Positions 1 to 62,122 of a DNA stretch of 64,000 bases are shown piece after piece. The notes under the pieces are model-generated. The model was given only the letters and a program-made list of their open reading frames with translations. It searched no databases and was not told the DNA's origin. The translations under genes and the position numbers were made by a program. Every line of letters begins with the position of its first letter. Position 1 is the stretch's first letter. The DNA is taken from assembly GCF_004010195.1 (NCBI RefSeq), contig NC_057719.1, positions 20,795,753-20,859,752 of the forward strand, read 5' to 3'. Source of the DNA: Chiloscyllium plagiosum. Its lineage: Eukaryota.

Positions 1-1359
1 GAAATCCCTGGGAATTACAGACCAGTCAGTCTTACATCTATGGTAAGCAAGGTACTGGAAGGATTCTGAGAGATAGGATTTATAACTATTTGGAAAAACA
101 TAGCTTGATTAAAGATAGCGTAGCTTTGTGAGGGGTCAGTCATGCCTCACAAGCTTATTGAGTTCCTGAGGATGTGATGAGACAAGTCAATGAAAGTCGA
201 GCAGTGGATGTGGTGCATATGGATTTCAGTAAGGCATTTGATAAGGTTCCCCCGGTAGGCTCATTCAGAAAATTAGGAGGCGTGGGATACAGGGAAATTT
301 GGATGTCTGGATACAGAATTAGCTGGCTGAAAGAAGACAGCGAGTGGTACTGGATGGCAAGTATTCTGCCTGAAGATCGGTGACCAGTGGTGCCCGCAGG
401 GATCTGTACTTGAGCCTCTGCTCTTAGTAGTTTTTATGAATGACTTGGATGAAGGATTGGAAGGGTGGCTTAGTAAGTTTGCCAATGACACAAAGGTCAG
501 TAGTGTTGTAGATAGTGTTGAGGACTGTTGAAGGTTAGAACAGGACATTGACAGGATGCAGAGTTGGACTGAGAAGTGGCAGATGGAGTTCAACCACAAT
601 AAATGCAAAGTGATTCATTTTAGAAAGTCAAATGTGAATGCTGAATACAGGATTAAAGATAGGATTCTTGGCGGTGAAGAGGAACAGTGGGATCTTGAGA
701 TCCACATACACAGATCCCTCAAAGTTGCCACCCAAGTTGAGAGGTTGCTAAGAAGGTGTACGGTGTGTTGGCTTTCATTAACAGGGGGATTGAGTTTAAG
801 AACCATGAGGTTTTGCTGCAGCTCTATAAAACCCTGATTAGACCACACTCTGAATATTGTGTCCAGTTCTGGTTGTCTCATTATAGAAAGGATGCAGATG
901 CTTTAGAGAGGGTGCAGAGAGGATTTACTAGGATGCTGCCTGGATTGGAATATTTGTCTTATGAAGAGAGGTTGAGTGACAATGGTTTTTCACACTGGAG
1001 AGAAAGAGGAAGAGAGGTGACTTGATAGAGGTGTACAAGGTAATGAGAGGCATAGATAGAATAGAGAGCCAGAGACTTTTCCCCAGGGCAGAAATGGCTG
1101 TCATAAGGGGGTCATAATTTTAAGGTGATTGGAGGAAGGTATAGGGGAGATGTCAGAGGTAGGTTCTTTACACTGAGAGTGGTGGGTGCGTGGAATGCAC
1201 TGCCAGCGGCGATAGTAGAGTCAGAGACATTAGGGACATTTAAGCGACTGCTGGATAAGAATATGGATGGCAGTAAATTAGATTAAGATAAATGCTTAGC
1301 ACAACATTGTGGACTGAAGGGCCTGTACTGTGCTGTACTGTTCTATGTTCTATGTTCTA
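1..1359 (+). mobile_element. CR1-clade LINE (HER1-like), decayed 3' part of ORF2 (RT) plus 3' UTR
   Basis: Fragmented RT motifs PGNYRPVSLTS, DFSKAFDKVP, GVPQGS-like, KFANDTK and LYKTLIRPHSEYCVQFW; ends in a (ttctatg)n tail; frameshifts and stops. Confidence 0.93.
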
Positions 1360-1771
1360 ATCCTTTGAACGAATGAAACAGTTTCTATTACCTTTTGTAA
1401 CTCCAGGAAGTAGAGTATCTTGTAGTGGACAGTGATTTCCGGGACATTGAGTTGTCTTCGGTGTTTTCAGTATATATGAACTGAAGAATATTTGAAGCTA
1501 CACAGAAAATCTGTCTAATAAATAAATATAATATTTAGTATTAATATACAAGTTTAAGTGATTTGTTTTGCATTGGGGAAAAATGTAGCATGAATCTTCC
1601 ACTCTGATTTTATACAATTTATTCTGCGGTGTTGAATGGAGGATGATCTGAGAATAATTGACCTACGTCAGTCTCTGAAAGAATTAACACATTGATGTCT
1701 GTACACAATTTTTTTCATTTCTTGCCATTAATCATGATATCTGCATTGCAGTTTCATCTTCTCACTCTATA

Positions 1772-2310: not shown

Positions 2311-2411
2311 TCAGAGCTGAAAATGTGTTGCTGGAAAAGCGCAGCAGGTCAGGCAGCATCCAAGGAACAGGAGAATCGACGTTTCGGGCATAAGCCCTTC
2401 TTCAGGAATGA
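2311..2411 (-). mobile_element. Short PLE-derived terminal unit with hammerhead core (family A)
   Basis: Reverse complement reads cattcCTGAAGAagggcttatgcccGAAAcgTCgattctcctg...; matches the termini of the PLE at 53618-56469. Confidence 0.88.
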
Positions 2412-3588: not shown

Positions 3589-3947
3589 CAATGAAATAAT
3601 CTAAAATTTGGCCATGGGTCTGTCAAATCCCCCAAGAATCATTAATTCTGCCCTTTCCATGTTCTGATCTACTTGAACATCTGCAGATTTTTGTGGTCTT
3701 TGCTCAATTTTCTGTGCTACTGCTGTAGCTGTGATATAGTCCCAATCTTGGTACTCACAACTCTTGACAAAACAGTCTGGGTAATGTTCCTGCTAGTGGT
3801 TTTCCACAATGACATTAATAGTGTTCTGTTCCTTTCTGCATTTACTGTTGGCGAATTTTCTGAAGAAGGGCTTATTCCCGAAACGTAAATTCTTCTGCTC
3901 CTCGGATACTGCCTGGCCTGCTATGTTTTCCAGCACCACATTTTCAA
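3589..3947 (+). mobile_element. Chimeric insertion: copy of 1772-2045 fused to a family-A PLE terminal unit (3860-3947)
   Basis: Flanked by the direct repeat ctaatgcagatt (3576-3587 and 3948-3959); junction at shared ctga. Confidence 0.75.
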
Positions 3948-5268: not shown

Positions 5269-5328
5269 TAAATGTGAAACTCATAAACATTTGGCAAGCC
5301 CCAAGTTGGGTGATACGCTAGTTTTAGT

Positions 5329-5651
5329 GGGCAGCATGGTGGCACAGTGGTTAGCACTGCTGCCTCACATTGCCAGAGACTTGGGTTCAATCCCCACCTC
5401 AGGCAACTGTCTGTGTGGAGTTTGCACATTCTCCCCGTGTCTGCATGAGTTTCCTCCAGGTGCTCTGGTTTCCTCCCACAATCCAAAGATGTACAGGTTA
5501 GGTGAATTGGCCATGCTAAATTGCCCATAGTGTTAGGTGAAGGGGTAAATGTAGGGGAATGGGTCTGGGTGGGTTGCTGTTTGGAGGGTCGGTGTGCACT
5601 TGTTGGGCCGAAGGGCCTGTTTCCACACTGTCGGTAATCTAATCTAATCTA
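5329..5651 (+). mobile_element. HE1-type V-SINE, full length
   Basis: tRNA head (ggtggcacagtggttagc, ggttcaatccc), V-domain tgtctgtgtggagtttgcacattctccccgtg, CR1-like tail gggccgaagggcctgtttcc, (taatc)n end. Confidence 0.92.
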
Positions 5652-8639
5652 GTTGGAACATCCAGGTTCTCCTAATGTCAGTCAAATTGAGCAGGTTGCA
5701 AGTGAAGTACCTCCCTACTCATAGACTCATTAGTGCCAGAGTTAGATCACAGAGCTGGATACACTCACCATCATAGAGCTCCAGCTTTAGAGCATTTGCA
5801 AGATGTGCCATAATTGCAAGCACAGTTGTAAGATAAAAGTTGTCAGTGATCAAAAAAAACTTCAGAGAAACAGAATTATTTTAAGCCATCTTTTCATCAA
5901 TTAAAAGTGGACTGAATACTAGCAAGAAGATTACATTAATTGCTGCCCCTATGTCTCGTCTATCACACTGTTTAACTCTTCTCCCTGTCTTTCTCTTGCT
6001 TTCTTTCTTCCTTGCATGGTGGTGCTGTTGCGGTCTGCCTATCCATATGTTCTCTTCATTCATCCATGGGATATAGACATCGCTTAGCTGGCCCAGTATT
6101 TATTACCATCCCTAATTGCCCTTCAAAGATGGCTGTCAGCTGAGCCACTAGAGTCCAGCTTAAATCTAATTTATTTCTACTTCACCACCATGGTGAGTGC
6201 TGACAACTTTACTAATTTTCTTGACACCAAATCTGGACCATTCACAGATTTAGATTTAGATTTAAGTTTTATTGTCATGTGTCACAAAGAATCCATGCAG
6301 AAATTTATCCATACACGCACACACATGTTGTCATAGACAGGCAGGCATGAGCACATGTACACATTATTATATACTCACACACTTACTTTCGGGCACACAA
6401 GTGCATATACATACAACTAGGGCTCTCTTAGATAAACTGAACATTTTGAGAGTGCAAAAAGATGACTGCATAATCAGACATGTAAACCTGAAACGAAAGC
6501 ACAAAGTAAGACAATCATTGTTGAAAAGTGGAAGATTTGTGCTTGTTTAATATCCAGCTAAATGAAGTATTTAATTTTACCTCATGTTTCTTTTCTTTGT
6601 TCTATTTTCACGGTTTTTGACAGTTATTGTGTTGATTTTGTTCTGTATTTGTGGTTAATTATTTAAACAGTACTCCAAACATCCTGTTCAATGTGATCTG
6701 GATGTTTCTTTTTCTTTTGGCTGTTTCTTCTATTTCTGCTTCTGTTTTTAATCCTGTCTTTTGTACACGAAGATGGCTATGGAGAATGGAGACTTTGTAC
6801 ACTTTTCACTATATTCTTGTACTCAAGTACACGTGACAATAAAAATCTAGATCTAAATGTAAAAATCTAAAATCTAAATCTAAATTTTGCCAGGTGCTAT
6901 AGTAAGAAACATAAAGTGGCATAACACGATATTAATAACAGATACATCAACATGTTTGTGTAAAAATCTTTGTCTTCCTATAACACATATCAATTCTGAT
7001 TATTCTCCCCCAGATGTGATCGACAAAATTTCAAGCAAAACATGAAACTAATACTAAACAAGGAGCGAACTCCTTTTGTTTATTTTCACTTTAATCTTTC
7101 AAAGACCAAGCATGATATTGTGACTTTTCTAGCTGAATATGATGTATAATCTACTTAAACCATGTCCTTGTAAAAGAGTGTAGTGTTTGAAATTCTTAAC
7201 AACTGTTCCATACTTGATGGCAGCAAATTAATATTATTTGAGTATTCCATCCATATTCCTGGAAGATATAAAATCCTGACACTGAGCCAAGGTTGGCACT
7301 TGAATATTTCTGAAATATTAAAAACCTTGCCTGATTTCCAACTCGTGTTCGGATCCTGAAATCAGATCCCCACGATGTCCTGAGCCTGTCCATGTTGTCA
7401 TTACACTTGCCAACACCACTATCTGGGAGGCAGCCTTCCAAATGACCAACTCCACACTCAGCATCTTGTTCAGGACAATGGACATCCTTTCCAGGCTGGA
7501 GGGTCATTGAGAGGGTATGCAGAGATATGGGGACAACAGCTCAATGTGGGTGGGTGCTGCAAGTGTGGGATAGCAAGTGCAATGCTTAATGGAATAAAGA
7601 AGGCAAAATCAGAAGGCAATCAGAAGGGATATTCTTCCACAAGGAGTAATAATGGAAGGAGCTGTGGTCTTTCATATCCTTGTTGTATTGCCGAGTAATG
7701 GAGCCCCTGGATCCAATAGCATTCTAACATTTTGCCAGGAGATTGTCTAACTGAGCTGTTGCTTCCATAATTGGCAGAGTAGGCCCTCCAATATTGGCAA
7801 GAAATTTAAGACTTGGACACAAAATATCCTGAAATTGGACCTTCATTGCAGGAATTAGATGCCCACCCCCATGGCTCAAAGTTGCCAAGAGACAGGAATA
7901 TGATGGAGCCTGTGGTTTCCTCCTTTTATCCTGGATCTCCTCAACCCTCAACCTAACTCCAAAGGGTTTGAAAATCAAGCTCCTTATGTCCTGTTATGTT
8001 TCCTGTTAACTGCGTCTATTATAAGTACCTCTCTCAGCACTTATCATCTAAACATGGCGCTCAATAATTGCACATTCTACTATCGCAGCTTGGATTTGCA
8101 ATCTGAGTTCATTATTCAACTCTGCAGCATATCCCGATGCTTCAATGAACCACTTCCCAAACTGCCTTTCAATTTTCTAACTAAATATAAATTGCCTTGA
8201 AACAAAATCATGAAATATTGTGAAGAATGGACCTGAAATGTTAACTCTGATTTCTTTCAGCAGATGTTGCCAGACCTGCTGAGCTTCTTCAGCAATTCCT
8301 GATTTACCACATCCACAGTTCTTTTAATTTTATGAAATGTTCAAAGTTATACGAACTAACTAATACTTGAACGAGTTACGTGACATCTGCCCATTGGGAT
8401 GAAAAGGACCATTCTGAGAAGGAACGAGCCAGTGTGAGATTTAAGGTAGGATTTTCAGGTCCAGAATAATACCTGTTCAATTGTCCTTATGTGGTGACCA
8501 AAATGTTTCAGTAACTGTAGTGTGTGTACTTTTAAGGTGAGCCTGATATCTGTTGAGTTTCTTATTGCTTGTTAGCTAGTCACATGGCATGAATGTGATA
8601 AATCTTCACTAAATGTCAAGATCAAACTAACCTCCTCAA

Positions 8640-9660
8640 AGAGTCAGAGTTATACAGCAAGGAAACAGGCCCCTCAGCCCTACTCATCCATGCTGACCAT
8701 GTTTCCTAAACTGAACTAGTCCCATTTCCCTGCATTTGACCCATTTCCCTCTGAACTTTTCCTATCCATGTATCTGGCTAAGTGTCTTTTAAATGTTGTT
8801 ATTTTCACTTATCTCTACTACTTCCTCCAGTAGGTTGTACTATATACATCCTCTATGTGAAAAAGTTGTCCCTCAGGTCCATTTCAAATATTTTCCCTCC
8901 CACCATTAAGCCAATGGCATTTAGTTTTAGACCCCTTACTCTTGGAAAAAGACCTTGGATATTCATCTTTTTCTATCTAAAGAGATTTTAAAAATCTCTT
9001 TAAAGGTAACCGTCAGCCTGCTAAGGTCCAGGGGAAAAAGTCCCAGCCTATCCGGCCCCTCCTTATAACTCAAATCTTTCAGTCTCAGTAACATCCTTGT
9101 AAATCTTTTTTGCACTCTGTCCAATTTAATAATTTCCATCCTACAGCAGGGTGACCAGAATTGTACGCAGTACTCCAAATGTGGCCTTATCAATGTCTCA
9201 TACAGCTGTAACATGACATCCCAACTCCTGTACTGAATGCTTTGACTGATGAAGGTAAGTGTGTCATCTTCACCACCCTCTCTGCCTGTGATGCCACTTT
9301 CAAGGAGCTATGTATGGAAACTTCCAGGTCTCTGTGTTTGACAACACTCTCCAGGGCCCTGCCATTAACTATAGAAGTCCTGCCCTAGTTTATCTTACCA
9401 AAATACAACACCTAGCATTTATCTGAATTAAACACCATCTGCCATTCTTCGACCCAGTGACCCAGTTGATCAAGATCCCAATGTACTTGTAAAAATCTTC
9501 ACCGTCCACTATACCATCAACTTTGGTGTCATCCGTAAACTGACAAACCATTCTCATTCAAATTATTTGTATAAATGTTGAACAGTGGATCTAGAACTGA
9601 TCCTTGAAGCAGACCGCTGGTCACAGGCTTCCAGTCTGAACAATAGCCTTCTACCATGAA
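8640..9660 (-). mobile_element. CR1 LINE 3' fragment
   Basis: Minus-strand MLQLYETLIRPHLEYCVQFWSP...RVQKRFTRML; KFTDDTK-like motif; 3' UTR at left end. Confidence 0.9.
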
Positions 9661-11914: not shown

Positions 11915-12450
11915 AAGGAAAGCTGGTATTTATATTGTGCTTTTTGTAATAACTGAACATTAAAAGCTTCACAGCCAACAAAATACTTTTTGAAGTAATC
12001 ACTGATATAATTTAGGAAATATAATAGCTCATTTGCTCTTAACAAACCTCTACAAACAAACATGCAGTAATGAGCAGGGAGAATCTGTTTTTTGATGACG
12101 TTGATTGAGGGAGAAACATTGGCCAGGACACTCATTCCTGATGAAGAGCTTATGCCCAAAACGTCGACTCTCCTGCTACTCAGATGCTGCCTGACCGGCT
12201 GTGCTTTTCCAGCTCCACACTCTTTCACCTGTGTTAATGCCCCTATCTTTCTTTGAAATAGTGTAATAGGATTGTTTATATTAGCCCAAGTAGGAGATGG
12301 GGCCTTGGTTCATATCTGATCTGATAGACGGTACCCCGAACAATTCAACATTCCCTCAGCGGAGGTTATTTCTGCAATCAAAACCTATGACTTGAACCCA
12401 ATATCTTGATTTTAGCATTAAGCATACTACCAGTTGAATTATAGCTCGCA
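11915..12450 (-). mobile_element. Deu-domain SINE interrupted by a PLE unit
   Basis: gatgacgttgattgagggagaaacattggccaggacac body; reverse-complement similarity to 12780-13182. Confidence 0.65.
12133..12227 (+). mobile_element. Family-A PLE terminal unit, hammerhead core with G12>A
   Basis: cattcCTGATGAagagcttatgcccAAAAcgTCgactctcctgc. Confidence 0.85.
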
Positions 12451-15906: not shown

Positions 15907-16754
15907 GAGGCTGCGAGTTCAATTTCAATCATCCTGGACATCTGCAGACAATTTATTTCAAAGCAAGGAATGTTGCTCATTAGCTCTTGTGTTAAGGCAA
16001 GATTTTGAAAAGTGATTCAACACAATATTATTCTTCGTCGATTGATCTATTACATGCTTTTCCTTCCATATTTCCCGTTTGTTTCTCACTATCCTGTTGG
16101 GGCCTGTATAGGATCAAATATCTACTAGTTATCCAGTAGAATGGATGGGAAAAGAAACACAAGTGTTGAGTAAACTGAGGAAACAGAAAACATATGAATG
16201 GTATGTAATAGGATTGAAGAAGTAAAAATAAAATTTGCCTGAGCAAATTTATATTCTGTCTATATTCACACAACATTGGTAGATAGCAATACGTTTAATG
16301 ATTCAATATTCTCAGATAATTCAATTTTTCTTGAGTTGCTATTCTTTATTTATTAAAATTAATATCTTTAGTTATCATCTAATATGAATAATATACACTT
16401 TCTGTCGGTTTCCTCTATTCTCCATAAATTCACCAAAATAATGAAAGTTAGTGAGTATTCAATTTTATTTTTCTTGTCAGTGTTGAAATGGTTCTTTGGT
16501 ATACCCAAATGTGTTAATTGTCAAACTTACGTTAGTATCAGAACGTAATGAGCAGATTCTGTTGTCAAAATAAAAGTGAGGTTCATGAGGTTCATTGATC
16601 TTTGAAGCTTTAAAGTCAGGAGCAGGCAATTAAATGTTCTAGCATTTTATGTGATCATGGCTGATCGGTAGGCCAACTCCTAAGATTTTTTGCCCATATC
16701 CCTTAATACTTTTGCTCAATGAAAAAAGCTATTTCAGATTTAAAGTTCATAATT

Positions 16755-18610
16755 AGAGTCATAGAGTCATGGAGATGTAAAGCATGGAAACAAACCTTCG
16801 GTCCAACTCGTCCATGCCGACCAGATATCCCAACCTAATCTAGTCCCATTTGCGAGCACTTGGTCAATATCCCTCTAAACCCTTCCTATTCATATACCTA
16901 TCCCAGATGCCTTGAAAATGTTGCAATTGCACCAGCCTCCACCACTTCCTCTGCAGTTCATTCCATACACATACCACCCACTGCATGAAAAAGTTGCCCC
17001 TTAGGTTCCTTTTATGTCTTTCCTCTCTCATCCTAAACTTATGTCCTCTAGTTCTGGACTCCCCCATTCCAGGGAAAAGATTTGTGTCTATTTACCCTAT
17101 CTATGTCCCTCGTGATTTTGTAAACCTCTATAAGGTCACCCCTCAGCCTCCGACACTCCACGGAAAACAGCCCCAACCTAATCAGCCTCTCCCTCTAGCT
17201 CAAATTTCACAACATCCTTCCAATAGGAAGGAGAACAGAATTGCACACAATATTCCAACAGTGGCCGAAACAGTGTCCAGTACAGGTGCAATATGACCTC
17301 CCAACTCCTGTACTCAATGCTCTAACCAATAAAGGAAAGCATACCAAACGCCTTCTTCACTGTCCTATCTACCTGCAACTCCACTTTCAAGGAGCTATGA
17401 ACCTGCACTCCAGGATCTCTTTGTTCAGCAACACTCCTTAGAACCTTACCATTAAGTGTATAGGTCCTGCTAAGATTTGCTTTCCCAAAATGCAGCACCT
17501 CGTATTTATCTAAATTAAACTCCATCTGCCACCCCTCAGCCCATTGGCCCACCTGATAAAGATCCTGTTGTAATCTAAGGTAACTTTCTTCGCTGTCTAC
17601 CACACCTCCAATTTTGGTGTCATCTGCAAACTTACTGACTGTACCTATGTTCATATTCAAATCATTTATATAAATGATGGAAACTAGTGGACCCAGCACC
17701 GATCCTGTGGCACCTCACTGGTCACAGGCTTCCAGTCTGAAAAACAATCCTCCACTACCACCCTCTGTATTCTACCTTTGAGACAGTTCTGTATCCAAAT
17801 GGTTAGTTCTCCCTGTATTCCAGAGATCTAACCTTGCTAACCAGTCTCCCATGGGGAACCTTGTCGAACGTCTTACTGAAGTCCACATAGATCACATCAA
17901 CCTCTCTGCCCTCATCAATCCTGTTTGTTACTTTTTCAAAAAACTCAATTAAGTTTGTGAGACATGATTTACCATGCACAAAGCCATATTGACTATCCCT
18001 AATCAGTCCTTGCCTTTCCAAATACGTGTAAATCCTGTTCCTCAGGATTCTCTCCAACAACTTGCCCACCACCAATGTCAGGCTCATTGACCTATAGTTC
18101 CTTGGCCTGTCCTTACTACCTTTCTTAGATTGTGGCATCACGTTAGCCAACCTCCAGTCTTATGGCACCTCACCTGTGACTATCGATGATACAAATATCT
18201 CAGCAAGGGGCCCAGCATCACTTCCCTAGCTTCCCACAGTGTTCTAGGGTACACTTGATCAAGTCCTGGGGATTTATCCACTTTTATGAGTTTCATAACA
18301 TCCAGTACTTCCTCCTCTGTAATTTGGACATGTCACCATCTATGTCCCTACATCCTATACCCTCCATGTCCTTTTCCACAGTAAATATTGATACAAAATA
18401 CTCGTTTAGTACCTCCCCCATCAACTGTGGCTCCACACAAAGGATGCCTTGCTGATCTTTGAGGGGCCCTATTCTCTACCTTTTTGTCCTTAATGTATTT
18501 ATCAAATCCCTTTGGATTCTCCTTAACCCTATTTGCCAAAGCTATCTCATATCCCCTTTTTGCCCTCCTGATTTTCCTCTTTAGTATACTCCTACTGCCT
18601 TTACATTCTT
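16755..18610 (-). mobile_element. CR1 LINE, 5'-truncated, decayed RT
   Basis: Minus-strand ORFs with SKFADDTKIGG, GKSCLTNLIEFFE, DFSKTFDKVPHGRL and RVKENPK; (tagagtca)n tail at left end. Confidence 0.94.
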
Positions 18611-18611
18611 C

Positions 18612-19160
18612 GGTTGTGGTTCTGTTCGCCGAGCTGGGAATTTGTGTTGCAGACGTTTCGTCCCCTGTCTAGGTGACATCCTCAGTGCTTGGGAGCCTCC
18701 TGTGAAGCGCTTCTGTGATGTTTCCTCCGGCATTTATAGTGATTTGTACCTGCCGCTTCCGGTTGTCAGTTCCAGCTGTCCACTGCAGTGGCCGGTATAT
18801 TGGGTCCAGGTTGATGTGCTTATTGATTGAATTTGTGGATACGAAAGCAACCACATGTGCTTATTGATTGAATTTGTGGATACGAAAGCAACCACCCCAA
18901 CACACACAAAAGAAGTTGCATCAAGGCACTGTGCAAAAGGGCCACAACAAACTGCAGTACACCAGAACTGCAAAAAGAGGAAGAAGAACACCTATACAAT
19001 GTATTCGCCAAAAAGGATACCCCCGCAATTTCATCAATAGATGCCTAAGGGAAAGACAACGGAATGAGGACATGCCACATCCCAAAGGACTAGCCACATT
19101 ACCATACATCAAAAACATTTCTGAACTGACAGCCAGATTACTGCAACCACTAGGACTCAT
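18612..19160. mobile_element. Penelope (Poseidon-type) partial copy: inverted terminal repeat plus RT-EN linker, truncated
   Basis: Near-identical to 19742-~20248; LPYIKNISELTARLL; internal 41-bp tandem duplication at 18814-18895. Confidence 0.88.
18649..18688 (-). ncRNA. Predicted minimal type-I hammerhead ribozyme (family B)
   Basis: Minus strand: GCA CUGAGGA U GUCaCCU-agac-AGGgGAC GAAA CG UC UGC; stem I GCA/UGC; intact core. Confidence 0.75.
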
Positions 19161-19741: not shown

Positions 19742-20829
19742 GTTGTGGTTCTGTTCGCCGAGCTGGGTATTTGTGTTATAGACGTTTCGTCCCCTGTCTA
19801 GGTGACATCCTCAGTGCTTGGGAGCCTCCTGTGAAGCGCTTCTGTGATGTTTCCTCCGGCATTTATAGTGATTTGTACCTGCCGCTTCCGGTTGTCAGTT
19901 CCAGCTGTCCACTGCAGTGGCCGGTATATTGGGTCCAGGTCGATGTGCTTATTGATTGAATTTGTGGATACGAAAGCAACCACCCCAACACACACAAAAG
20001 AAGTTGCATCAAGGCACTGTGCAAAAGGGCCACAACAAACTGCAGTACACCAGAACTGCAAAAAGAGGAAGAAGAACACCTATACAATGTATTGGCCAAA
20101 AAGGATACCCCCGCAATTTCATCAACAGATGCCTAAGGGAAAGACAACGGAATGAGGACATGCCACATCCCAAAGGACTAGCCACACTACCATACATCAA
20201 AAACATTTCTGAACTGACAGCCAGACTACTGCGACCACTAGGACTCATAACAGCACACAAACCAACAGCCACTCTCAGACAACAACTCACCAGGACAAAG
20301 GACCCGATACCCAGCATGAGCAAAACCAATGTAGTGTACAAAATCCCATGCAAGGACTGCACAAAACACTATATAGGACAAACAGGAAGACAGCTAACGA
20401 TTCGCATCCATGAACACGAAGTAGCCACGAAACGACACGACCAGTTCGCCTTAGTAGACGCACAGGCAGATGACAAACAACATGCGTTCGACTGGGACAA
20501 CATTACTATTATAGGACAAGCCAAACAGAGAACAGCCAGGGAATTCCTAGAGGCATGGCACTCATCCACAGATTCAATCAATAAGCACATCGACCTGGAC
20601 CCAATATACCGGCCACTGCAACGGACAGCTGGAACTGACAACCGGAAGCAGCAGAGACAAACCACTATAAATGCCGGAGGAAACATCACAGAAGCGCTTC
20701 ACAGGAGGCTCCCAAGCACTGAGGATGTCACCTGGACAGGGACAAAACGTCTGCAAAACAAATTCGAAGCTCGGCAAACAGAACCACAACAACGAGCACC
20801 CGAGTTACAAATCTTCTCACAAACTTTGA
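19742..20829 (+). mobile_element. Penelope-like element (Poseidon-type), 5'-truncated with inverted 5' terminal repeat
   Basis: 19742-19969 is the reverse complement of 20564-20790; 13-bp TSD actctgagctatc (19729-19741 and 20830-20842); GIY-YIG ORF inside. Confidence 0.93.
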
Positions 20830-20923: not shown

Positions 20924-22835
20924 ACATAAGAACCTGAGAACTTGGAGCAGGAGTCAGTCATCTGGCTGATCCTTTTGTGGACTCAGCCTCATTTACCACT
21001 CACTATAATCTTCAAAAGTCTGTCTATCTTTGCCTTAAAAACAGTCAACTAAGTAGCCTCAACTGCGTCACTGGGCAGGGAATTCCACAGATTCGCAACC
21101 TTTTGGGTGAAGACGTTCCTCCTCATCTGAGTCCTAAATCTGCTCCTCCTTATTTTGAGGCTGTACCGCCTAGTTCTAGTTTCATCTGTCAGTGGTAACA
21201 ATTCCCCTGCTTCTATCTTACCCATTCCTTTCATACTTTTATATGTTTCTGTAAGATCCGCTCTCATTCTTCTGAATTCCAATGAATATAGTCCCAGTTT
21301 ACTCAATCTCTCCTCATAAGCTAACCCTCTCAACTCTGGAATCAACCTGGTGAACCTCCTCTGCATCCCCTCCAGTGCCAATACATCTTTCTCAAGTAAG
21401 GAGACCAAACTATTACATAGTACTCTAGGTGTGGTCTCAACAGCTGCAGAATAACCACCCTATTTTAAAACCCCACATTTCTAGCAATGAAGGACAATTT
21501 TCCATTTTCCTTCTTAATTACCTGCTGCACCTGCAAACCAACTTTTTTGTGATTCATGCACAAGGACACCCAGGTCTCTCTGCACAGCAGCATGCTGCAA
21601 TTTTTCACCATTTAAATTATAGTCCATTTATCTACCAAAATGAATGACCTCACATTTATCAGAATTGTACTCCATCTGCCAGACCATTGCCAACTCACTT
21701 AATCTATCTATATCCCTCTGCAGACTTTCAGTGTCCTCTGCAGACTTGCTCTACCACTCATCTTATTTCATCTACGAATTTTGACACACTACACGTGGTC
21801 CCCAATTCCATATCATATATATAAATTGTAAACAATTGCTGATCCAATTCTAATGCCTGAGGCACGCAACTAGCCAATGATTGCCAAGCAGAAAAACAAC
21901 CATTTCTCCCAACTCTTTGCTTTTTATTAGTTAACTAATCTTCTGTCCGTGTTGATACATTATTCATAATTCTGTGCACCGTTATCTTCTGTTGCAGTAG
22001 TTTGTATGACACCTTGTCAAATGCCTTCTGGAAGTCCAGATACACCACATCCACTGTTCCACTGTTGTTTACCACACTTGTAATCTCCTCAAAGAGTTCC
22101 AGTAAATTAAGCATGACCTGCTTTTCATGACCATGAGACAACTTCTAACCAGATGTCTTGCTATTTCTTCCTTGATTGTAGATTCAAGCATTTTTGCCAT
22201 AACAGAAATTAAGCTCATGGACCTGTAGTTACCCACCTTTTATCTCCTACCATCTTTAGACAGTGGTGTCACAGTTGCTGTTTTCCAATCTGCGGGAGCC
22301 CTCCCAGAGTCCAGCAAATTTTAATAAATTACCACAAGCGTATTTGTTATTTCCCTGCCATCACTTTTAGCATCCTGGGATGCATTCCATCAGGGCCAGC
22401 AGACCTGTCTACCTTTAGCCCCATTCGGCGAAAGTGAGAACTGCAGATACTGGAGATCAGAGACAAGATTAGAGTGGTACTGGAAAAGCACAGCAGGTCA
22501 GGCAGCATCCGAGGAGCAGGAAAATCAATGTTTCAGGCAAAAGCCCTTCATCAGGAATGGCTTTAGCCCCATTAGCATACCTAACACTACTTCTTTAATG
22601 ATAATGATCATTTCTAGGTCCTCACTTGCCATAGCCTCCTTGTCATCAATTACTGGCATATTATTTATCTCTTCCATTGTGAAAACTGATACAAAATACC
22701 TGTTCAACGCCTTGGCCATTTCCTCAATTTTCATTATTCAATCCCCTTTCTCATCCTCTATAAGACTAATGCATACCTTAGCCATTCTTTTTTGTTTTAT
22801 ACATTTGTAGTAACTTTTGCTATCTGCTTTTATAT
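20924..22835 (-). mobile_element. CR1 LINE (second subfamily), decayed
   Basis: DVVYLDFQKAFDKVSY, DVLALEGMQRRFTRLIPELRGL, EEMAKALNRYFVSVFT. Confidence 0.92.
22426..22560 (-). mobile_element. Family-A PLE terminal unit nested in CR1
   Basis: Perfect 13-bp TSD ctttagccccatt (22413-22425 and 22561-22573); minus strand cattcCTGATGAagggcttttgcctGAAAcat. Confidence 0.9.
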
Positions 22836-28362: not shown

Positions 28363-28830
28363 TTTTGGATGTAGATTTGCTCGCTGACCTGGAAGGTTCA
28401 TTTCCAGACGTTTCGTTACCTTACTAGGTAACATCCTCAGTGGACCTCATGCGAAGAAATGCTGAAAATTCCTGCTTTCTATTTATTTATTTGGGTTTCT
28501 TTGGCTTGGTGATGTCATTTCATGTGGTGAAGTCACTTCCTGTTCCTTTTCTCAAGGGGTAGTAGATGGGGTCTAATTCGATGTGTTTGTTGATAGAGTT
28601 CCGGTTGGAATGCCATGCTTCTAGGAATTTTCGTGCATGTCTTTGTTTGGCTTGTCCTAGGATGAAGAAACCCAAACAGAAAGCAGGAATTTTCAGCATT
28701 GCTTCACATGAGGTCCACTGAAGATGTTACCTAGTAAGATAACAAACTATCTGGAAATGAACCTTTCAGCTCAGCAAGCAAACCTACATCCAAAACCTCA
28801 ACCTGAGCAACAAATCTTCTCAAAACTTGT
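28363..28830. mobile_element. Fold-back non-autonomous PLE (family C) with a GIY-YIG end remnant
   Basis: Arms ~28363-28502 and ~28664-28794 are inverted; minus strand ILGQAKQRHARKFLEAWHSNRNSINKHIELDP; degenerate TSD tatgcaacaaa / tacgcaaaaaa. Confidence 0.85.
28403..28444 (-). ncRNA. Predicted minimal type-I hammerhead ribozyme (family C), best-formed copy
   Basis: UCCA CUGAGGA U GUUACCU-AGUA-AGGUAAC GAAA CG UC UGGA: 4-bp stem I, 7-bp stem II, GUC triplet. Confidence 0.8.
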
Positions 28831-29519: not shown

Positions 29520-30882
29520 CATAACCTTAAGACATAGGAGTGGAAGTAAGGCTGTTTGGCCCATCAAGTCCACTCCGCCATTCGATCATGGCTGATGGGC
29601 ATTTCAACACCACTTATCCGCACTCTCCCCATATCCCTTAATTCCTTGCGTGATTAAGAATTTATCAATCTCTGCCTTGAAGACATTTAACATTCTGGCC
29701 TCCACTGCGCTCTGTAGCAATCAATTCCAAAGGCCCACCACTGTCTGGTTGAAGAAATGTCTCCTCATTTCCATTTTAAATTAACCTCCTTTAGTTCTAA
29801 GCCTGTGCCCACGGATCATACTATCCCTGCCTGACAGAAAGAAACTCCCAGCTTCCACCCTTTCTAAGCCATGTATTATCTTATAAGCTTCTATTAGAGC
29901 GCCCCTCAACCTTCTAAACTCTAATGAATACAATCTCAGGATCCTCAGCCATTCATCGTATGTTAGGCCTACCATTCCAGGGGTCATTTGTGTGAATCTC
30001 CGTTGGACACGCTCCAGTGCCAGTATGTCCTTCCTGAGGTGTGGGGCCCAAAACTGGACACAGTATTCTAAATGGGGCCTAGCTAGAGCTTTATAAAGTC
30101 TCAGTAGCACATCATTGCTTTACATTCCAACCCTCTTGAGATTAATGACAACATTGTATTTGCTTTCTTAACCACGGACTCAACCTGCAAGTCAACCTTT
30201 AGAGAATTCTGGACAAGCACGCCCAGATCCCTTTGTACTTTGGCTTTAAGAATTTTCTCACCTTTTAGAAAATAGTCCATGCCTGTATCCTTTTTTACCA
30301 AAGTTCCAATCCTTGCATTTGCTCACATTGAATTTCATCAGCCATTTCTTGGATCACTCTCCTAACCTGTCTAAATCTTTCTGCAGCCTCCCCACCTCCT
30401 CAGAACTACCTGCCTAACTTTGTATCATCTGCAAACTTTTCCAGAATGCCCCCAGTACCTTCATCCAGATCATTAATACTGAAGTGAACAGCTGCGGCCC
30501 CAACACTGAACCCTGCCATTCTGAAAAAGAACCTTTTATCCCAACTCTCTGCCTTCTGTCAGATAACCAATCCTCAATCCACGCCAGTAGCTCACCTCAA
30601 ACATCATGGGCTCTCATCTTACTCAGCAGCCTCCCATGAGGCACCTTATCGAAGGCCTTTTGGAAGTCTAAATAGATAATATCCACAGGGTTTCATTGGT
30701 CTAACCTACTTGTTACGTCTTCAAAGAATTCTAACAGGTTTGTCAGGCATGACCTCCCCTTACTAAATCCATGCTGACTTGTTCTAATCCGACCCTGCAC
30801 TTCCAAGAATTTAGAAATATCATCCTTAAAGATGGATTCTAGAATTTTACCTACAACCGAGGTTACATTAATCAGCCTAACC
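29520..30882 (-). mobile_element. CR1 LINE, 5'-truncated
   Basis: SQHGFSKGRSCLTNLLEFFE, KFADDTK, LYKALARPHLEYCVQFWAPHLRKD. Confidence 0.93.
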
Positions 30883-38700: not shown

Positions 38701-38925
38701 AGCTGAAAATGTGTTGCTGGAAAAGCGCAGCAGGTCAGGCAGCATCCAAGGAGCAGGAGAATCGAAGTTTCGGGCATGAGCCCTTCTTCAGGAATCATTC
38801 CTGAAGAAGGGCTCATGCCCGAAACGTCAATTCTCCTGCTCCTTGGATGCTGCCTGACCTGCTGTGCTTTTCCAGCAACACATTTTCAGATCTGATCTCC
38901 AGCATCTACTGTCCCCACTTTCTCC
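38701..38925. mobile_element. Fold-back (head-to-head) family-A PLE element, one hammerhead core per strand
   Basis: Arms 38701-38795 and 38797-38891 inverted around 1 nt; perfect 15-bp TSD ttttgcaacaattag (38686-38700 and 38926-38940). Confidence 0.93.
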
Positions 38926-46230: not shown

Positions 46231-46362
46231 GGTATTCCTGATGAAGGGCTTTTGCCCGAAACATCGATTTTACTTCTCCTCGGATACTGCCTGAACTGCT
46301 GTGCTTTTCCAGCACCTCTAATCCAGAATCGGGTTTCCAGCATCTGCAGTCATTGTTTTTAC
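46231..46362 (+). mobile_element. Family-A PLE terminal unit nested in CR1
   Basis: attcCTGATGAagggcttttgcccGAAAcaTCgat...ccagcatctgcagtc. Confidence 0.85.
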
Positions 46363-47503: not shown

Positions 47504-47629
47504 AGGAGAACGTGAGGTCTGCAGATGCTGGAGATCAGAGCTGAAAATGTGTTGCTGGAACAGCGCAGCAGGTCAGGCAGCATCCAGGGAACAGGAGAAT
47601 CGATGTTTCGGGCATAAGCCCTTCTTCAG
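47504..47629 (-). mobile_element. Family-A PLE terminal unit nested in CR1
   Basis: TSD gattagg (47497-47503 and 47630-47636); minus strand CTGAAGAagggcttatgcccGAAAcaTC. Confidence 0.9.
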
Positions 47630-48329
47630 GATTAGGGCCAATCAAGGATATTAGGGGGAAGTTGTGTGTGGAGTCAGAGGAGATAGGGGAAGCAATAAAT
47701 GAACACTTCATCAGTATTCACACTGGAAAAAGATAATGTTGTTGAGGAGAATACTGAGATACAAGCTACTAGTCTAGATGGGATTGAGGTTCACAAGCAA
47801 TAGGTGTTAGCAGTTCTAGTAAGTGTGAAAATAGATAAGTCCCCTGGGCTGGATGCAATTTATCCTAGGATTCTCTGGGAAGCTAGGGAGGAGATTGCAG
47901 AGCCTTTGGCTTTGATCTTTATATCATCATTATCTACAGGAATAGTGCCGGAAGACTGGAGGATATCAAATGTTGTCCCCTTGTTCAAGAAGGGGAGTAG
48001 AGACAACTCTGGTAATTATAGACCAGTGAGCCTTACTTCGGTTATGGGTAAAGTGTTGGAAAAGGTTATAAGAGATAGGACTTATAATCATTTAGAGAGG
48101 AATAAGTTGATTAGGGATAGTCAACACAGTTTTGTGAACGGTTGGCCATGTGTCACAAACCTTATTGAATTCTTTGAGAAGGTGACCAAACAGGTAGATG
48201 AGGGTAAAGCAGTTGATGTGTTGTATAGGAATTTCAGTAAGCCATTTGACAAGGTTCCCCATGGTAGGCAATTACACAAAATACGGAGGCATGGGACTGA
48301 GGGTGATTTAGCAATATTAATCAGAAATT

Positions 48330-48644
48330 GGGGCGGCACGGTGGCTCAGTGGTTAGCACTGCTTCTCACAGCGCCAGTGACCTGGTTTCAATTCCAACCT
48401 CGGGCGACTGTCTGTGTGGAGTTTGTATATTCTCCCCGTGTCTGCGTGGGTTTCCTCTGGGTGCTCCGGTTTCCTCCCACAGTCCAAAGATGTGCAGGTC
48501 AGGTGAATTGGCCATACTAAGTTGCCCGTAGTGTTAGGTGCATTAGTCAGAGGGAAATGTGTCTAGATGGGTAACTCTTCAGAGAGTCGGTGTGGACTTG
48601 TTGGGCTGAAGGGCCTGTTTCCCTACTGTAGGTAATCTAATCTA
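48330..48644 (+). mobile_element. HE1-type V-SINE nested in CR1
   Basis: tRNA head, full V-domain, (taatc)n tail. Confidence 0.92.
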
Positions 48645-50120
48645 AAAAAAGTCAGAAGGTGGAGGTTGATGGGAAATATTTATCCTGGAGTTCAGTCATG
48701 AGTGGTGTACCACAAGGATCTGTTTTGGGTCCACTACTGTTAGTAATTTTTAATAAATGACCTGGATGAGGGCGTAGAAGGATGGGTTTGTAAATTTGCA
48801 GATGACAGTAAGGTAATTGGAGTTGTGGATAGTGCTGAAGAATGTTGTAGGTTATAGAGGGATATAGCTTCAGAGTTGGCTGAGAGGTGACAAATAGAAT
48901 TTATTGTGGAAAAACGTGAGGTGATTCACTTTGGAAGGAGCAACAGGAATAAGAGTACTGGGTTAATGGTAAGATTCTTGGTAGTGTAGATGAACAGAGA
49001 GATCTCGGTGTCCAAGTACATAGAATCTTGAAAGTTGCGATCTAGATTGGTAGGGTTGTTAAGAAGGCATATGGTGTCTTAGCTTTTATTAGTAGAGGGA
49101 TTGAGTTTTAGAGCCATGAGGTCATGTTGCATCTGTACAAAGCTCTGGTGTAGTCGCACTTGGAGTATTGGTTCTGGTCACTACATTATAGGAAGTACGT
49201 GGAAGCTTTGGAAAGGGTTCAGAGGAGATTTACTAAGATGTTGCCTGGTATGAAGGGAAGGACTTATGAGGAAAGGCTGAGGAACATGAGACTGTTTTCA
49301 TTAGAGAGAAAAAAGGTTGAATAGTGACTTAATTGAGACACATAAGATAATCAGAGGGTGAGATAGAGTGGACACTGAGAGCCTTTTTTCTTGGATGATG
49401 ATGGCTGGCACGAGGAAACATAGCTTTAAATTGAGGGGTGATAGATATAGGACAGATGTCAGAGGTAATTTCTTTACTTAGAGAATAGTAGGAGCGTGGA
49501 ACAGCCTGCCTGCAACAGTAATAGACTCACCGACTTTAAGGGCATTTAAATGATCATTATTAGATATATGGATGAGAATGGAATAGTGTAGGTTAGATAG
49601 GCTTCAGATTAGTTTCACAAGTCGGCATAACGTCGAGGGCCAAAGGGCCTGTGCTGCGCTGTAATGTTTGATATTCTGTGTTCTATCTATCTATTAATCT
49701 GTCAATGAGGCAAATGTACTCTCCTTTTACCAAGGGGAAATTGGTAAAATCTTGTGTTTTTTCAACAAGCCATAAAAAAGGCAGCATTTAGATTCCTTTC
49801 TATCTAAATACAATTGACACAAGGTGGAAGATGACAATACATGTGAGTACAGATGGTACTGTGAGGTCAATGTCAAACAATTTTCAATTAATCTGCTCAT
49901 GCTTGGTAAGTGGTTGGCTTCTCTCAGAAATAATGACAGACATTGAGGTTTGTCTGTGTTTGTTTTTAATATGGCACCTCATAGAATGTGAGGCTGCAGA
50001 AATCTCAACGTGAACAATGATAGGCAGCAAATGGGACTGTGGGCCATCCAAATATTTCCACCCAATTTTGAAATACATTGTGGCTTTCTACTCCACCTGA
50101 GCAGAGCAGCAGCATAATGG

Positions 50121-50534
50121 ATTGGTTCTTGGTCAATTTGCCCAAGCTGGTTGATTTTCTTGCAAGCGTTTCGTCTCTCTCCTGGGTGACATCTTCAGTG
50201 CTGTCATGTCTGCAGATGGGGTCGGTTTTGACATTTTTGTTTATGGAACCAATGGGTGAATACGGGTCTCCAGTAATTCATGGAGGAAATAGACCCTCAT
50301 CTACAGACCACTCCAGCACAAAACTGGAAACAAGAACCACCTGCCACAACTGACAGAACCAGATAAATTCAGGACAAAAACCATATCAACAACATTTCTT
50401 CTGGATGCTACACAGCACTGAAGATGTCACCAAGGAGGGAGACAAAATGTTTGCAACAAAATCAACCAGCTCAGCAAACCACCAAGGACTTCAACCATAA
50501 CCTGAGCTACAGGTCTTCACTAAAATCTTAAAGA
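50121..50534. mobile_element. Fold-back non-autonomous PLE (family D), two degenerate hammerhead cores
   Basis: Cores at 50162-50201 (-) and 50415-50454 (+), GCA CTGAAGA T GTC...GAC; 10-bp TSD agcataatgg (50111-50120 and 50535-50544). Confidence 0.82.
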
Positions 50535-50562: not shown

Positions 50563-50762
50563 GTTAAAAACCACACAACACGAGGTTATAGTCCAACAGG
50601 TTTATTCGGAAGCACTAGCATTCGAAGCTCTGCTTCTTCACCATCTGATGAATAAGCAGTGCTCTGAAAGCTAGTGCTTCCAAATAAACTTGTTGGACTA
50701 TAACCTGGTGTTGTGTGATTTTTAACTTTGTCCACCTCAGTCCAACACTGGCTCCTCCAATT
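50563..50762. mobile_element. Fold-back PLE-derived element (family E)
   Basis: Arms ggttatagtccaacaggtttatt / aataaacttgttggactataacc; core cat CTGATGA...GAAA GC TA gtg at 50642-50676; TSD cattaatggta(c/t)aga. Confidence 0.85.
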
Positions 50763-53211: not shown

Positions 53212-54904
53212 ATCGTGGAATCAATACTTGTCTTGGAGTGGGTCCACAGGGGGATTACAAGAATAAAGACACTGTTACATGAGGAGTGGTTGAGGACTCC
53301 ATGTCTTAAGGCATTGACCTAGATCCAACCATCTTCAACTGCTTAATCATGAACCACTCTACCCCAAAAAGTCAGTTTTGTGGTCATTCTACAATTAGTA
53401 ATTTTGAGCACTCAACCATCCACATCCTGATCATAAACTTAAATTGGCTTCAAAACTAGATCTGAGTTAGAAAGTCTGCTGTAAGTAACTAATTTTCTGA
53501 CTCCTCAAAGCTTTTGTGAGGTACAAACCAGTGCCTGCTAAATACTGCTACTTAGGACTGCTGTGATTATTTAAAAAAACTCTTTATTTAAATTAAAGTA
53601 GGTACACTTATTTTCTAGGAGAAAGTGAGGACTGCAGATGCTGGAGACCAGAGTTGAAAAATGTGGTGCTGGAAAACACAGCAGGACAGGCAGCATCGAG
53701 GAGCAGGAGATTCGACATTTCGGGCATAAGCCCTTCTTCAGGAATGAGGCTGGTGTGCCAAGCGGGCTGAGATAAAAGGTAGGGGGGAGGGAATTTGGGG
53801 GAGGGGCACTGGGAATACGATAGGTGGAAGGAGCTGTCGGTTCCGTAGGCAGGTGCTGAGAAAAGAGATGCGGCTGTAGTAGCGAGTTTGTCTCAGGACG
53901 TGGCTGAAGAGCTTCAGGGCAGGACTAAGACAAGGTGGGAGGAGGGGAAATGAGGAAGCTGGAGAAATCTACCTTCATCCTGTGTGGTTGGAGGGTTCCT
54001 AGGCGGAAGATGAGGCGCTCTTCCTCCAGGCGTCATGTGGTCAGGGTCTGGCGATGGAGGAGGCCAAGGACCTGCATGTTTTTACAGGGAGCAGGGTGGG
54101 AGGAGGTGTAATCTAGGTAGCTGTGGGAGTCGGTCGGTTTGTAGTAAATGTGTTGAATCGGTCACCTGAGATAGAAATGGAGAGGTCTAGGAAGGGGAGG
54201 GAAGAGTCTGAGACGGTCCAGTTAAATTTGAGGTCGGGGTGGAAAGTGTTAGTAAAGTGGATGAACTGTTCAACCTCCTCGTGGGAGCACGAGGTAGCGC
54301 CGATTCAGTCATCGATGTAGCGGGGGAAAAGGTAGGTGGTGGTGCCAGTGTAGGTGCGGAAGATGGACTGTTCCACATATCCGACGAAGAGACAGGCATA
54401 GCTGGGGCCCATGCGGGTGCCCACGGCTACTCCTTTGGTTTGGAGGAAGTGGGAGGATTGGAAGAAGAAGTTGTTAAGAGTGAGGACCAGTTCAGTCAGT
54501 CAAAGGAGGGTGTCAGTGGAAGGGTACTGGTTGGGTCGACGGGAGAGGAATAAGCAAAGGGCTTGGAGGCCTTCGTGATGGGGGTTGGAAGTGTATAGGG
54601 ACTGGATGTGTGGGCCAGTGAGGGAGGCGCAGTTGTAGTTTGTCGCACTGATCTTTACACCCCGTGCTGGCCTCTTACCCGCCCTCGATCTCTTCATATC
54701 TAACTGACGCCGCGGACATTGACCACCTCAACCTGTCCATCTCTCTCACCCACTCCAACCTCTCACCCTCACAACGCGCAGCCCTCCACTCCCTCCGTTC
54801 CAACCCCAACCTCACCATCAAACCGGCAGACAAGGGAGGCACAGTGGTAGTTTGGTGCACCGATATTTACACCGCTGAAGCTAGACGCCAACTCGCGGAC
54901 ACCA

Positions 54905-55029
54905 NNNNNNNNNNNNNNNNNNNNNNNNNNNNNNNNNNNNNNNNNNNNNNNNNNNNNNNNNNNNNNNNNNNNNNNNNNNNNNNNNNNNNNNNNNNNNNNN
55001 NNNNNNNNNNNNNNNNNNNNNNNNNNNNN
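54905..55029. other. Assembly gap (N run)
   Basis: Run of n. Confidence 1.
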
Positions 55030-56071
55030 CGAACTCATCTCTGCATACCTTGACACTGTCCTGTCCCCCTTAGTCCAAGAACTCCCCACCTATGTTCGGG
55101 ACACCACCCACGCCCTCCACCTACTCCATGATTTTCGCTTCCCCGGCCCCTAACACCTTATCTTCATGATGGACATCCAGTCCCTATACACTTCCATCCC
55201 CCAACACGAAGGCTTCCAAGCCCTCCGCTTCTTCCTCTCCCGCAGTCCCAACCAGTACCCTTCCACTGACACCCTCCTTCTACTGACTGAACTGGTCCTC
55301 ACTTTTCACAACTTCTCCTTCCAATCCTCCCACTTCCTCCAAACCAAAGGGTTATCCATGAGCACCCGCATGGGCCACAGCTATGCCTGCCTCTTCGTCG
55401 GATATGTGGAACAGTCTGTCTTCCGCAGCTACACTGGCACCAACCCCACCTTTTCCTCTGCTACATCCATGATTGTATTGGTGCTACCTCATGCTCCCAC
55501 GAGGAGGTTGAACAGTTCATCCACTTTACTGACACCTTCAACCCGACCTCAAATTTACCTGGACAGTCTCAGACTCCTTCCTCCCCTTCCTAGACCTCTC
55601 CATTTCTATCTCGGGCGACTGACTCAATACAGACATTTACTACAAACCGACCGACTCCCACAGCTGTCTAGATTACACCTCCTCCCACCCTGCCCCCTGT
55701 AAAATCACCATCCCATATTCCCAATTCCTTTGCCTCCGTCGCATCTGCTCTCAGGAGGACAAACTCCACTACTTAACAACCCAAATGGCCTCCTTTTTCA
55801 AAGACGCAATTTCCCCTCCGACGTGGTCGACGATGCTCTCCACCGCATCTCCTCCACTTCCCGCACCTCCGCCTTTGAACCCTGCCCCTCCAATCGCCAC
55901 CAGGACAGAACCCCACTGGTCCTCACCTTCCACCCCACCAATCTCCAGATACATCATATCATCCTTCGTCATTTCCGCCACCTCCAAACAGACCCCATTA
56001 CCAAGGATATATTTCCCTCCCCACCCCTATCAGTGTTCCGGAGAGACCACTCCCTCCACGACTCCCTCGTC

Positions 56072-56376: not shown

Positions 56377-56412
56377 ATTCCTGAAGAAGGGCTTATGTCC
56401 GAAACGTCGAAT
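56377..56412 (+). ncRNA. Predicted minimal type-I hammerhead ribozyme (family A) in the PLE terminal repeat
   Basis: AUUC CUGAAGA A GGGC-UUAU-GUCC GAAA CG UC GAAU; stem I AUUC/GAAU; predicted cut after 56408. Confidence 0.78.
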
Positions 56413-62030: not shown

Positions 62031-62122
62031 TTTCCTGAAGAAGGGCTTATGCCCAAAACATCGATTCTCCTGCTCCTTGGATGCTACCTGACCTGCTGCA
62101 CTTTTCCAGCAACACATTTTTC
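62031..62122 (+). mobile_element. Family-A PLE terminal unit, core decayed at CpG sites
   Basis: ttcCTGAAGAagggcttatgcccAAAAcaTCgattctcc; flanking near-direct repeat agtttgaa(c/t)attaat. Confidence 0.85.

What the first reader, a model, noticed from the sequence alone, without database searches (positions are those of the whole stretch)
28403..28444. Five PLE families carry covarying minimal hammerhead ribozymes
Seen: the same core CTGANGA-N-[stem II]-GAAA-(CG|GC)-TH recurs with different but self-complementary stems. Family A: ATTC/GAAT with GGGC/GTCC (56377-56412; GGGC/GCCC at 2374-2409 and 38797-38832). Family B: GCA/TGC with GTC/GAC (18649-18688). Family C: TCCA/TGGA with GTTACCT/AGGTAAC (this locus). 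Family D: GCA/TGC (50162-50201, 50415-50454, both damaged). Family E: CAT/GTG (50642-50676). All have one extra nucleotide after A9, and intact copies replace stem III by a 4-nt palindrome (ACGT or AGCT). Established: PLE terminal repeats encode minimal type-I hammerheads, some cleaving as dimers (Cervera and De la Pena 2014; Lunse et al. 2017). Inference: about 20 intact or decayed cores in 64 kb suggests a very large genomic ribozyme load, and these particular variants may be uncharacterised.
Basis: partly seen in the sequence, partly recalled or inferred. Interest (0 to 1): 0.72.

Follow-up and report, generated by a model that had tools for sequence, protein, structure and literature searches.

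The report
Shark Penelope retroelement minimal hammerheads
These are real copies of the tiny "hammerhead" RNA motif already known from the ends of Penelope-like jumping genes; this likely shark genome holds about 166,000 intact cores, and they are predicted to cut RNA only weakly, in pairs or with protein help.

Summary
In detail: 22 related copies lie in the window, 13 with the catalytic core intact, 4 passing a strict descriptor (shuffles: 0.02). They sit in the terminal repeats (pLTRs) of Penelope-like elements (PLEs) of a likely carpet shark. The five 'families' are three lineages: B, C and D are one Poseidon-type clade; A and E are Neptune-like. The window's E copy is decayed, and most A copies have a 2-bp stem I. 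The extra nucleotide after A9, the G10.1-C11.1 pair and the palindrome replacing stem III are all in Cervera and De la Pena 2014, so these are new members of a known kind. Genome-wide, 166,014 exact cores match (control 225), more than the published counts I read (axolotl 126,247; Xenopus about 9,000). In the Poseidon clade the extra U makes the ORF's start codon, a layout reported for the Anolis element. Stems covary across subfamilies (3 of 10 pairs), but few lineages underlie this. Cleavage is untested; RNA reads show no cut-site pile-up. This scan has noted the same motifs before in this and other genomes.

The parts
28403..28444 (-). Family C minimal type-I hammerhead (4-bp stem I, extra U, 7-bp stem II, ACGU palindrome); predicted cut 28407/28406
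28432..28434 (-). ATG formed by A9-U-G10.1; likely start codon of the Poseidon ORF (MLPSKVTKRLE)
   Evidence: full-length family B copies open from this ATG
28538..28663 (-). 3' end of a Poseidon-type ORF (end of the GIY-YIG region), decayed
   Evidence: tblastn of P0006 residues 660-702, E 1e-12
28481..28490 (-). AT-rich box (ATAAATAAAT) at the position where relatives carry TATAAA; likely pLTR promoter
   Evidence: function inferred
28714..28755 (+). Inverted, decayed family C copy (G12 lost) of the same insertion
18649..18688 (-). Family B hammerhead, intact
19778..19817 (-). Family B hammerhead, core intact, stem I broken; same strand as 18649, 1129 bp away
20716..20754 (+). Family B hammerhead, core damaged, at the 3' end of the ORF remnant
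19912..20732 (+). Poseidon-type RT-thumb/GIY-YIG coding remnant of family B
50162..50201 (-). Family D copy (Poseidon clade), U16.1 lost
50415..50454 (+). Family D copy, G12 lost
50642..50676 (+). Family E copy, core letters intact, stem II decayed; inverted partial copy at 50613-50650
56377..56412 (+). Family A hammerhead, intact, 3' of a Neptune-like RT remnant; predicted cut after 56408
54627..56071 (+). Neptune-like PLE RT coding remnant of family A (interrupted by N gaps)
53710..53745 (-). Inverted family A copy of the same insertion (CG read as TG)
2374..2409 (-). Family A stub, core intact, 2-bp stem I
38760..38832 (.). Head-to-head pair of family A stubs (38760-38795 minus, 38797-38832 plus)
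3856..3891 (+). Family A stub, decayed stems
12134..12169 (+). Family A stub, core damaged
22523..22558 (-). Family A stub
46234..46269 (+). Family A stub
47598..47633 (-). Family A stub
62031..62066 (+). Family A stub, core damaged

Best explanation
The motifs are minimal type-I hammerhead sequences in the terminal repeats of three lineages of Penelope-like retroelements; they likely cut weakly, as dimers or with help from the element's protein, in transcripts of the few full-length parent elements, while the great majority of genomic copies, this one included, are likely inert 5'-truncated insertions. Shown: motif anatomy, same-strand position after the ORF end, paired motifs 2.5 kb apart in full-length copies, the start ATG inside the Poseidon motif, copy numbers. 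Inferred: two motifs on one transcript pair their ACGU (or AGCU) palindromes to make helix III and cut after nucleotide 17, trimming the transcript to unit length. The load is high because reverse transcription likely starts a short way 3' of the motif, so even very short insertions carry it; after insertion the copies decay (CpG loss).
For: Strict descriptor 4 vs 0.02 in shuffles. In 120 stretches of 10 kb, 39 of 39 descriptor hits had the extra nucleotide and 31 of 39 had CG or GC (7 more CA/TG, 1 GG) although neither was required; reversed control 1. Genome counts 166,014 vs 225 control; A 76,851, E 15,013, B/C/D 17,736. PLE coding sequence upstream on the same strand: 25 of 30 family C loci, the window among them, 19 of 20 E-linked RT loci, window A. 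4 of 30 long family B loci carry a same-strand motif at both ends (2503, 2503, 2502, 2343 bp apart). Poseidon-clade alignment: 92% of 178 cells paired, 3 of 10 pairs change on both sides, slid controls 34-52%. Copies end 3' at about 75-90 nt (A) and 80-90 or 115-124 nt (E) after C3, like the internal RT starts of the Anolis element. Class precedent: monomers inactive, dimers weakly active; Anolis motif cuts only with its protein.
Against: No cleavage was observed. Raw RNA reads laid on family B (1038 reads) and A (1089 reads) show no place where many molecules begin or end, a weak test in a fragmented poly(A) library; the Anolis study also found none. Genomic 5' ends at the cut site: 4 of 212 family A copies vs about 1.4 per position, Poisson p 0.054 uncorrected, with 4 also at a non-cut position. 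The ACGU duplex is only -1.7 kcal/mol. The commonest A form has a 2-bp stem I. This locus has only an inverted partner, so it cannot form a cis dimer within its insertion; inverted pairs were the commonest close neighbours in the sample. Only the 'cells' and 'score' measures beat all shuffles; the pair-count measure did not (76 of 500).
Confidence: 0.8

Rival explanations
1. The motif is kept as a folded RNA signal (for protein binding, RT positioning, promoter or start-codon context) and cleavage is marginal or dispensable for transposition.
For: Catalytic mutants of the Anolis motif did not affect insertion in vitro, and no cut-site reads were found there. Naiad elements spread without canonical hammerheads. 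No cut-site signal in RNA or clear one in DNA here. In the Poseidon clade the motif also encodes the protein start, and in family B the stop.
Against: All three lineages share the full catalytic core although only the Poseidon clade was shown to have the coding overlap; stem partners covary, including a stem I base whose partner is non-coding in the window's family C copy. This rival is compatible with the motif still being a true ribozyme.
Confidence: 0.35
2. The short copies are a separate class of non-autonomous 'retrozyme' or SINE-like elements with hammerheads rather than truncated PLE ends.
For: Most A and E copies are short and carry no coding sequence; tandem retrozymes are reported in one chondrichthyan and derive from PLEs.
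Against: No tandem arrays of these units in the window; 5' ends are heterogeneous and run continuously into pLTR and ORF sequence; motifs are minimal rather than the canonical type I of described retrozymes.
Confidence: 0.07
3. The pattern is chance or a by-product of repeat amplification of one arbitrary sequence.
For: High copy number by itself reflects amplification, not function; copies within a family are not independent.
Against: Three lineages with different stems and flanks share the core, the extra nucleotide, G10.1-C11.1 and a palindrome; controls are near zero.
Confidence: 0.02

Closest known systems
[quoted passage not shown]
   Same: Type I, no helix III, extra nucleotide between 9 and 10.1, G10.1-C11.1, palindromic 15.2-16.2, long helix II, short helix I, mostly dispersed single copies, opposite-strand pairs 100-700 bp apart, reported in Xena, Poseidon and Neptune elements of fishes.
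   Different: No shark named in the parts read; their counts were about 9,000 (Xenopus tropicalis) and 4,000 (coelacanth) with another descriptor, against 166,014 exact cores here.
Poseidon element PAc of Anolis carolinensis, Frangieh et al. 2024 (PMC11167929; parts 1-2 of 4 and passages read)
   Same: [quoted passage not shown]
   Different: PAc was tested in vitro (protein-assisted cutting, dispensable for insertion); nothing was tested here. In shark family B the ORF's stop codon also lies in the motif.
Non-LTR retrozymes of animals (Cervera and De la Pena 2020, PMC7229834, section 15 and passages; bioRxiv 10.64898/2026.07.22.740005, parts 1-2 of 5 and passages)
   Same: Type I hammerheads in very high number (126,247 in axolotl), working better as dimers, traced to PLE pLTRs.
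   Different: Those are tandem repeats of 50-970 bp, often with canonical motifs and circular RNAs; the copies here are dispersed truncated PLE ends.

Membership tests
PLE minimal hammerhead (min-HHR) | Conserved core CUGANGA ... GAAA ... UH | tested here: met
   13 of 22 window copies; 166,014 exact genome matches vs 225 control
PLE minimal hammerhead (min-HHR) | Helix I and helix II present, type I topology | tested here: met
   This locus folds both stems (z -2.16); 39 descriptor hits in 1.2 Mb; commonest A form has only 2 bp of stem I
PLE minimal hammerhead (min-HHR) | Extra nucleotide between A9 and 10.1; G10.1-C11.1; palindromic 15.2-16.2 in place of helix III | tested here: met
   39 of 39 with the extra base, 31 of 39 CG/GC, neither required by the descriptor
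PLE minimal hammerhead (min-HHR) | Located in pLTRs of PLEs, on the sense strand | tested here: met
   family D by DNA similarity only
PLE minimal hammerhead (min-HHR) | Compensatory changes in stems across families | tested here: met
   3 of 10 pairs in the B/C/D alignment; different paired stems in A, B/C/D and E; few independent lineages, no R-scape test
PLE minimal hammerhead (min-HHR) | Self-cleavage as dimer or with protein | not testable with these tools
   Indirect looks inconclusive
Penelope/Poseidon clade (B, C, D) | Single ORF, RT followed by GIY-YIG without a Zn-finger linker; pLTR-ORF-pLTR layout | tested here: met
   L242 spans P0009 residues 1-814 between two motifs; no CxxC linker in P0001 or P0006; GIY-YIG Pfam hits on homologs are below cut-off; no tree built
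Neptune (or Nematis) clade (A, E) | CX2-5CxxC linker between RT and GIY-YIG | tested here: inconclusive
   Linker seen in homologs P0055, P0070, P0033, not read in the window element (N gap); Neptune vs Nematis not separated; no tree built
Non-LTR retrozyme | Tandem array of short units each with a hammerhead | tested here: not met
   No such array in the window; not tested genome-wide
Rfam hammerhead families | Covariance-model match | tested here: not met
   No hammerhead family at E<=10; these models expect helix III (my knowledge)

The most novel reading that the evidence does not exclude
This genome carries the largest hammerhead load I found reported (about 166,000 intact cores, 47 per Mb), and in its Poseidon elements the ribozyme is a translation switch: the extra U makes the start codon, so protein-assisted cutting 28 nt downstream removes the cap and the AUG and turns the mRNA into a copying template or a unit-length circle once enough element protein is bound.
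Probability: 0.15. Interest if true: 0.6.

Novelty: new member of a known kind. Interest (0 to 1): 0.27.

Why it matters
The class is known, so the finding is mostly ordinary. Two things have some value. The genome offers well over 100,000 natural copies in three lineages, a rich set for covariance models and for asking whether PLE hammerheads cut in vivo, which is still open. And the Poseidon motif is dual-coding (start codon, residues 1-11, and in family B the stop codon), which gives a direct test of whether cutting controls translation of the element.

Tried and rejected
Rfam scan: no hammerhead match. Pfam on six window PLE fragments: nothing at E<=0.01; identity came from homolog searches instead. 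U3-A8 core variant: 1 hit in 1.2 Mb, not a family. MAFFT alignment of all families (A1) misaligns stem II, so pair counts were made on the B/C/D clade only (18 rows picked by me as distinct variants). Two-strand cofold gave an extended duplex, not a double hammerhead, so it says nothing on the dimer model. My first B/C/D fuzzy pattern was one base short and was redone. One search used wrong coordinates and was ignored; redone. No RNA holder listed for this locus. Run X22 laid 0 reads, no test. No begin/end pile-up at the cut site in run X21. Cut-site pile-up of genomic 5' ends inconclusive. Search for more Poseidon N-termini gave 2 proteins, one shark and one lacking the start, so the M-x-P-R-x-x-x-K-R-L imprint rests on one trematode protein. 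Literature: searches for hammerhead ribozyme + shark + Penelope, Penelope + Chiloscyllium + transposable elements and Penelope/shark genome/repeat/hammerhead listed no paper on shark PLE hammerheads; subscription papers and supplements (for example the species tables of Cervera 2014 and the 2026 preprint, which sampled one chondrichthyan) were not seen and may hold shark counts. No covariance model or R-scape test was run.

Full report
Observation. The named locus on the minus strand reads TCCA CTGAGGA T GTTACCT AGTA AGGTAAC GAAA CG TC TGGA, and both stems appear in the minimum-energy fold (-13.1 kcal/mol, z -2.16, 5 of 200 shuffles as stable). Similarity searches give 22 copies in the window, 13 with intact core letters. 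A strict descriptor passes 4, against 0.02 on average in 100 shuffles. Rfam has no match to them. Three details need correcting: the E copy is decayed (intact E is CAC/GTG with GGAGC/GCTCC); the A copies at 2374 and 38797 have a broken stem I, and a 2-bp stem I is the commonest A form; B, C and D are related subfamilies (63-71% identity).

What carries the motifs. The best protein homologs are from bamboo, epaulette, zebra and whale sharks and rays, so the genome (3.56 Gb) is likely a carpet shark. Upstream of the named motif, on the same strand, 28663-28538 matches the C-terminal end of an RT plus GIY-YIG protein (E 1e-12), and 25 of 30 family C loci, this one included, have such remnants. 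Family B follows a GIY-YIG ORF remnant. Family A at 56377 follows an RT remnant whose homologs have a CxxC linker before the GIY-YIG domain, the mark of the Neptune and Nematis clades (PMC8557442, passages). Family E follows a similar RT in 19 of 20 loci found with that RT; among 30 E loci picked by the motif alone only one insertion (two loci) showed such an RT. D is assigned by DNA similarity only. The named insertion has the usual PLE shape: a 5'-truncated 3' end plus an adjacent inverted, decayed copy (28714-28755).

Load. Exact whole-genome pattern counts: generic core with G10.1-C11.1 and a G/C dinucleotide 166,014 (reversed control 225); family A 76,851, E 15,013, B/C/D 17,736. An independent sample of 120 stretches of 10 kb at round coordinates of the 40 largest contigs gave 59 generic cores (about 175,000 scaled) and 39 hits that also have both stems (116,000 scaled, bootstrap 80,000-157,000). 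Counting decayed copies (A 124, E 32, B/C/D 29 in 1.2 Mb) scales to about 550,000. Published counts that I read: about 9,000 in Xenopus tropicalis and 4,000 in coelacanth (PMC4209133), 126,247 in axolotl (PMC7229834). Descriptors differ, so the comparison is rough.

Structure and covariation. In the sample, all 39 hits had the extra nucleotide and 31 had CG or GC, with 7 CA or TG (CpG decay) and 1 GG, although the descriptor asked for neither. In 18 B/C/D variants 92% of cells pair; 3 of 10 pairs change on both sides (stem I outer pair GC, CG, UA; stem II pair 3 CG, UG, UA); slid controls pair 34-52%. The pair-count measure was reached by 76 of 500 shuffles, and relatedness inflates the other measures, so this is supportive and not a formal test. 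One stem II pair is a fixed mismatch in family B.

Coding overlap. In 4 of 30 long family B loci a motif stands at both ends of the ORF on the same strand, 2343-2503 bp apart. The match to a full-length trematode homolog begins at its residue 1 exactly on A9-U-G10.1, and the frame runs MSPRQGTKRL against MPPRMVVKRL. So the 'extra nucleotide' is the T of the likely start codon, and GAAA-CGU encodes Lys-Arg. In family B the ORF's stop codon lies in the 3' motif; in the window's family C copy stops come earlier. The third stem I base is the first base of codon 11 (Gln, Glu or Lys) and its partner changes with it. The start-in-motif layout is published for the Anolis element PAc (PMC11167929), and the scan noted it before.

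Promoter and ends. A TATA-like box lies 47-53 nt before C3 in 25 of 41 long B/C/D copies and 38-40 nt before in 19 of 37 long E copies, but not in A (1 of 45). In family A, 79 of 212 copies found by their downstream part begin within 6 nt before C3 (about 11 per position against 1.4 further in); roughly a dozen of these reflect subfamily divergence and are not true ends. This fits a transcript that starts just before the motif, a lead I took from earlier scan notes. Only 4 of 212 begin at the cut site (p 0.054 uncorrected), which is inconclusive.

RNA. One raw single-cell poly(A) run with the same species label laid 1038 reads on a full family B element, with a strand bias of 182 to 20 over the motif, and 1089 reads on family A from both strands; most are 85-95% alike, so they come from other copies. 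No place showed many molecules beginning or ending. The library is fragmented, so this is a weak test.

Mechanism. Most likely two motifs on one transcript pair their palindromes to form helix III and cut after nucleotide 17, slowly and perhaps only with the element's protein, as found for Schistosoma dimers and PAc. The palindrome duplex alone is weak (-1.7 kcal/mol). The named copy lacks a same-strand partner in its insertion and is likely inert; the best cis pair in the window is 18649 and 19778. Whether cutting matters for transposition is open: PAc mutants still inserted in vitro.

Verdict. Real, correctly interpreted, and of a known kind. What is added is the shark sequences, a very high count and the dual-coding detail. 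Three literature searches listed no paper on shark PLE hammerheads, but supplements and subscription papers were not seen. The scan's own notes hold 770 findings with these words in at least 36 genomes.

Noticed in passing
L281-L300 (G000 places): A 654-bp stretch of the family E RT region is 100% identical in 24 of the 40 best matches while their motifs and pLTRs differ, and it matches homologs in two frames; either a very young non-autonomous subfamily or repeat consensus pasted in by the assembly.
   Followed up: partly
window 50600-50689: Family E stub forms a near-perfect fold-back (inverted partial copy then the motif); Rfam scores it as a weak miRNA-like hairpin (39 bits, gathering 81). 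The same fold-back layout recurs in the best genome matches.
   Followed up: partly
L033:1536-1578, L122:4726-4768, L086:5683-5724: Further minimal-hammerhead variants with other stems (GAGTC/GACTC, GGGT/GCCT) not among the five window families.
   Followed up: no
protein hits P0004, P0010, P0027-P0029: Annotated shark and ray host-gene isoforms (MAP3K7, NT5DC1 and others) contain PLE coding sequence; could be exonised elements or annotation errors.
   Followed up: no
window 1-1360, 8636-9655, 16741-18474, 21014-22411, 29656-30863, 47630-49686: Many decayed RT-bearing LINE fragments (RVT_1 hit at 47804-48517), likely CR1/L2 type by recall, and a dispersed 300-bp SINE-like repeat (5319-5649 and copies).
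   Followed up: no
L039 minus strand near 3150: One family E copy with the U3-A8 core variant (TTGACAA), a change described in Schistosoma elements; single copy in 1.2 Mb.
   Followed up: no
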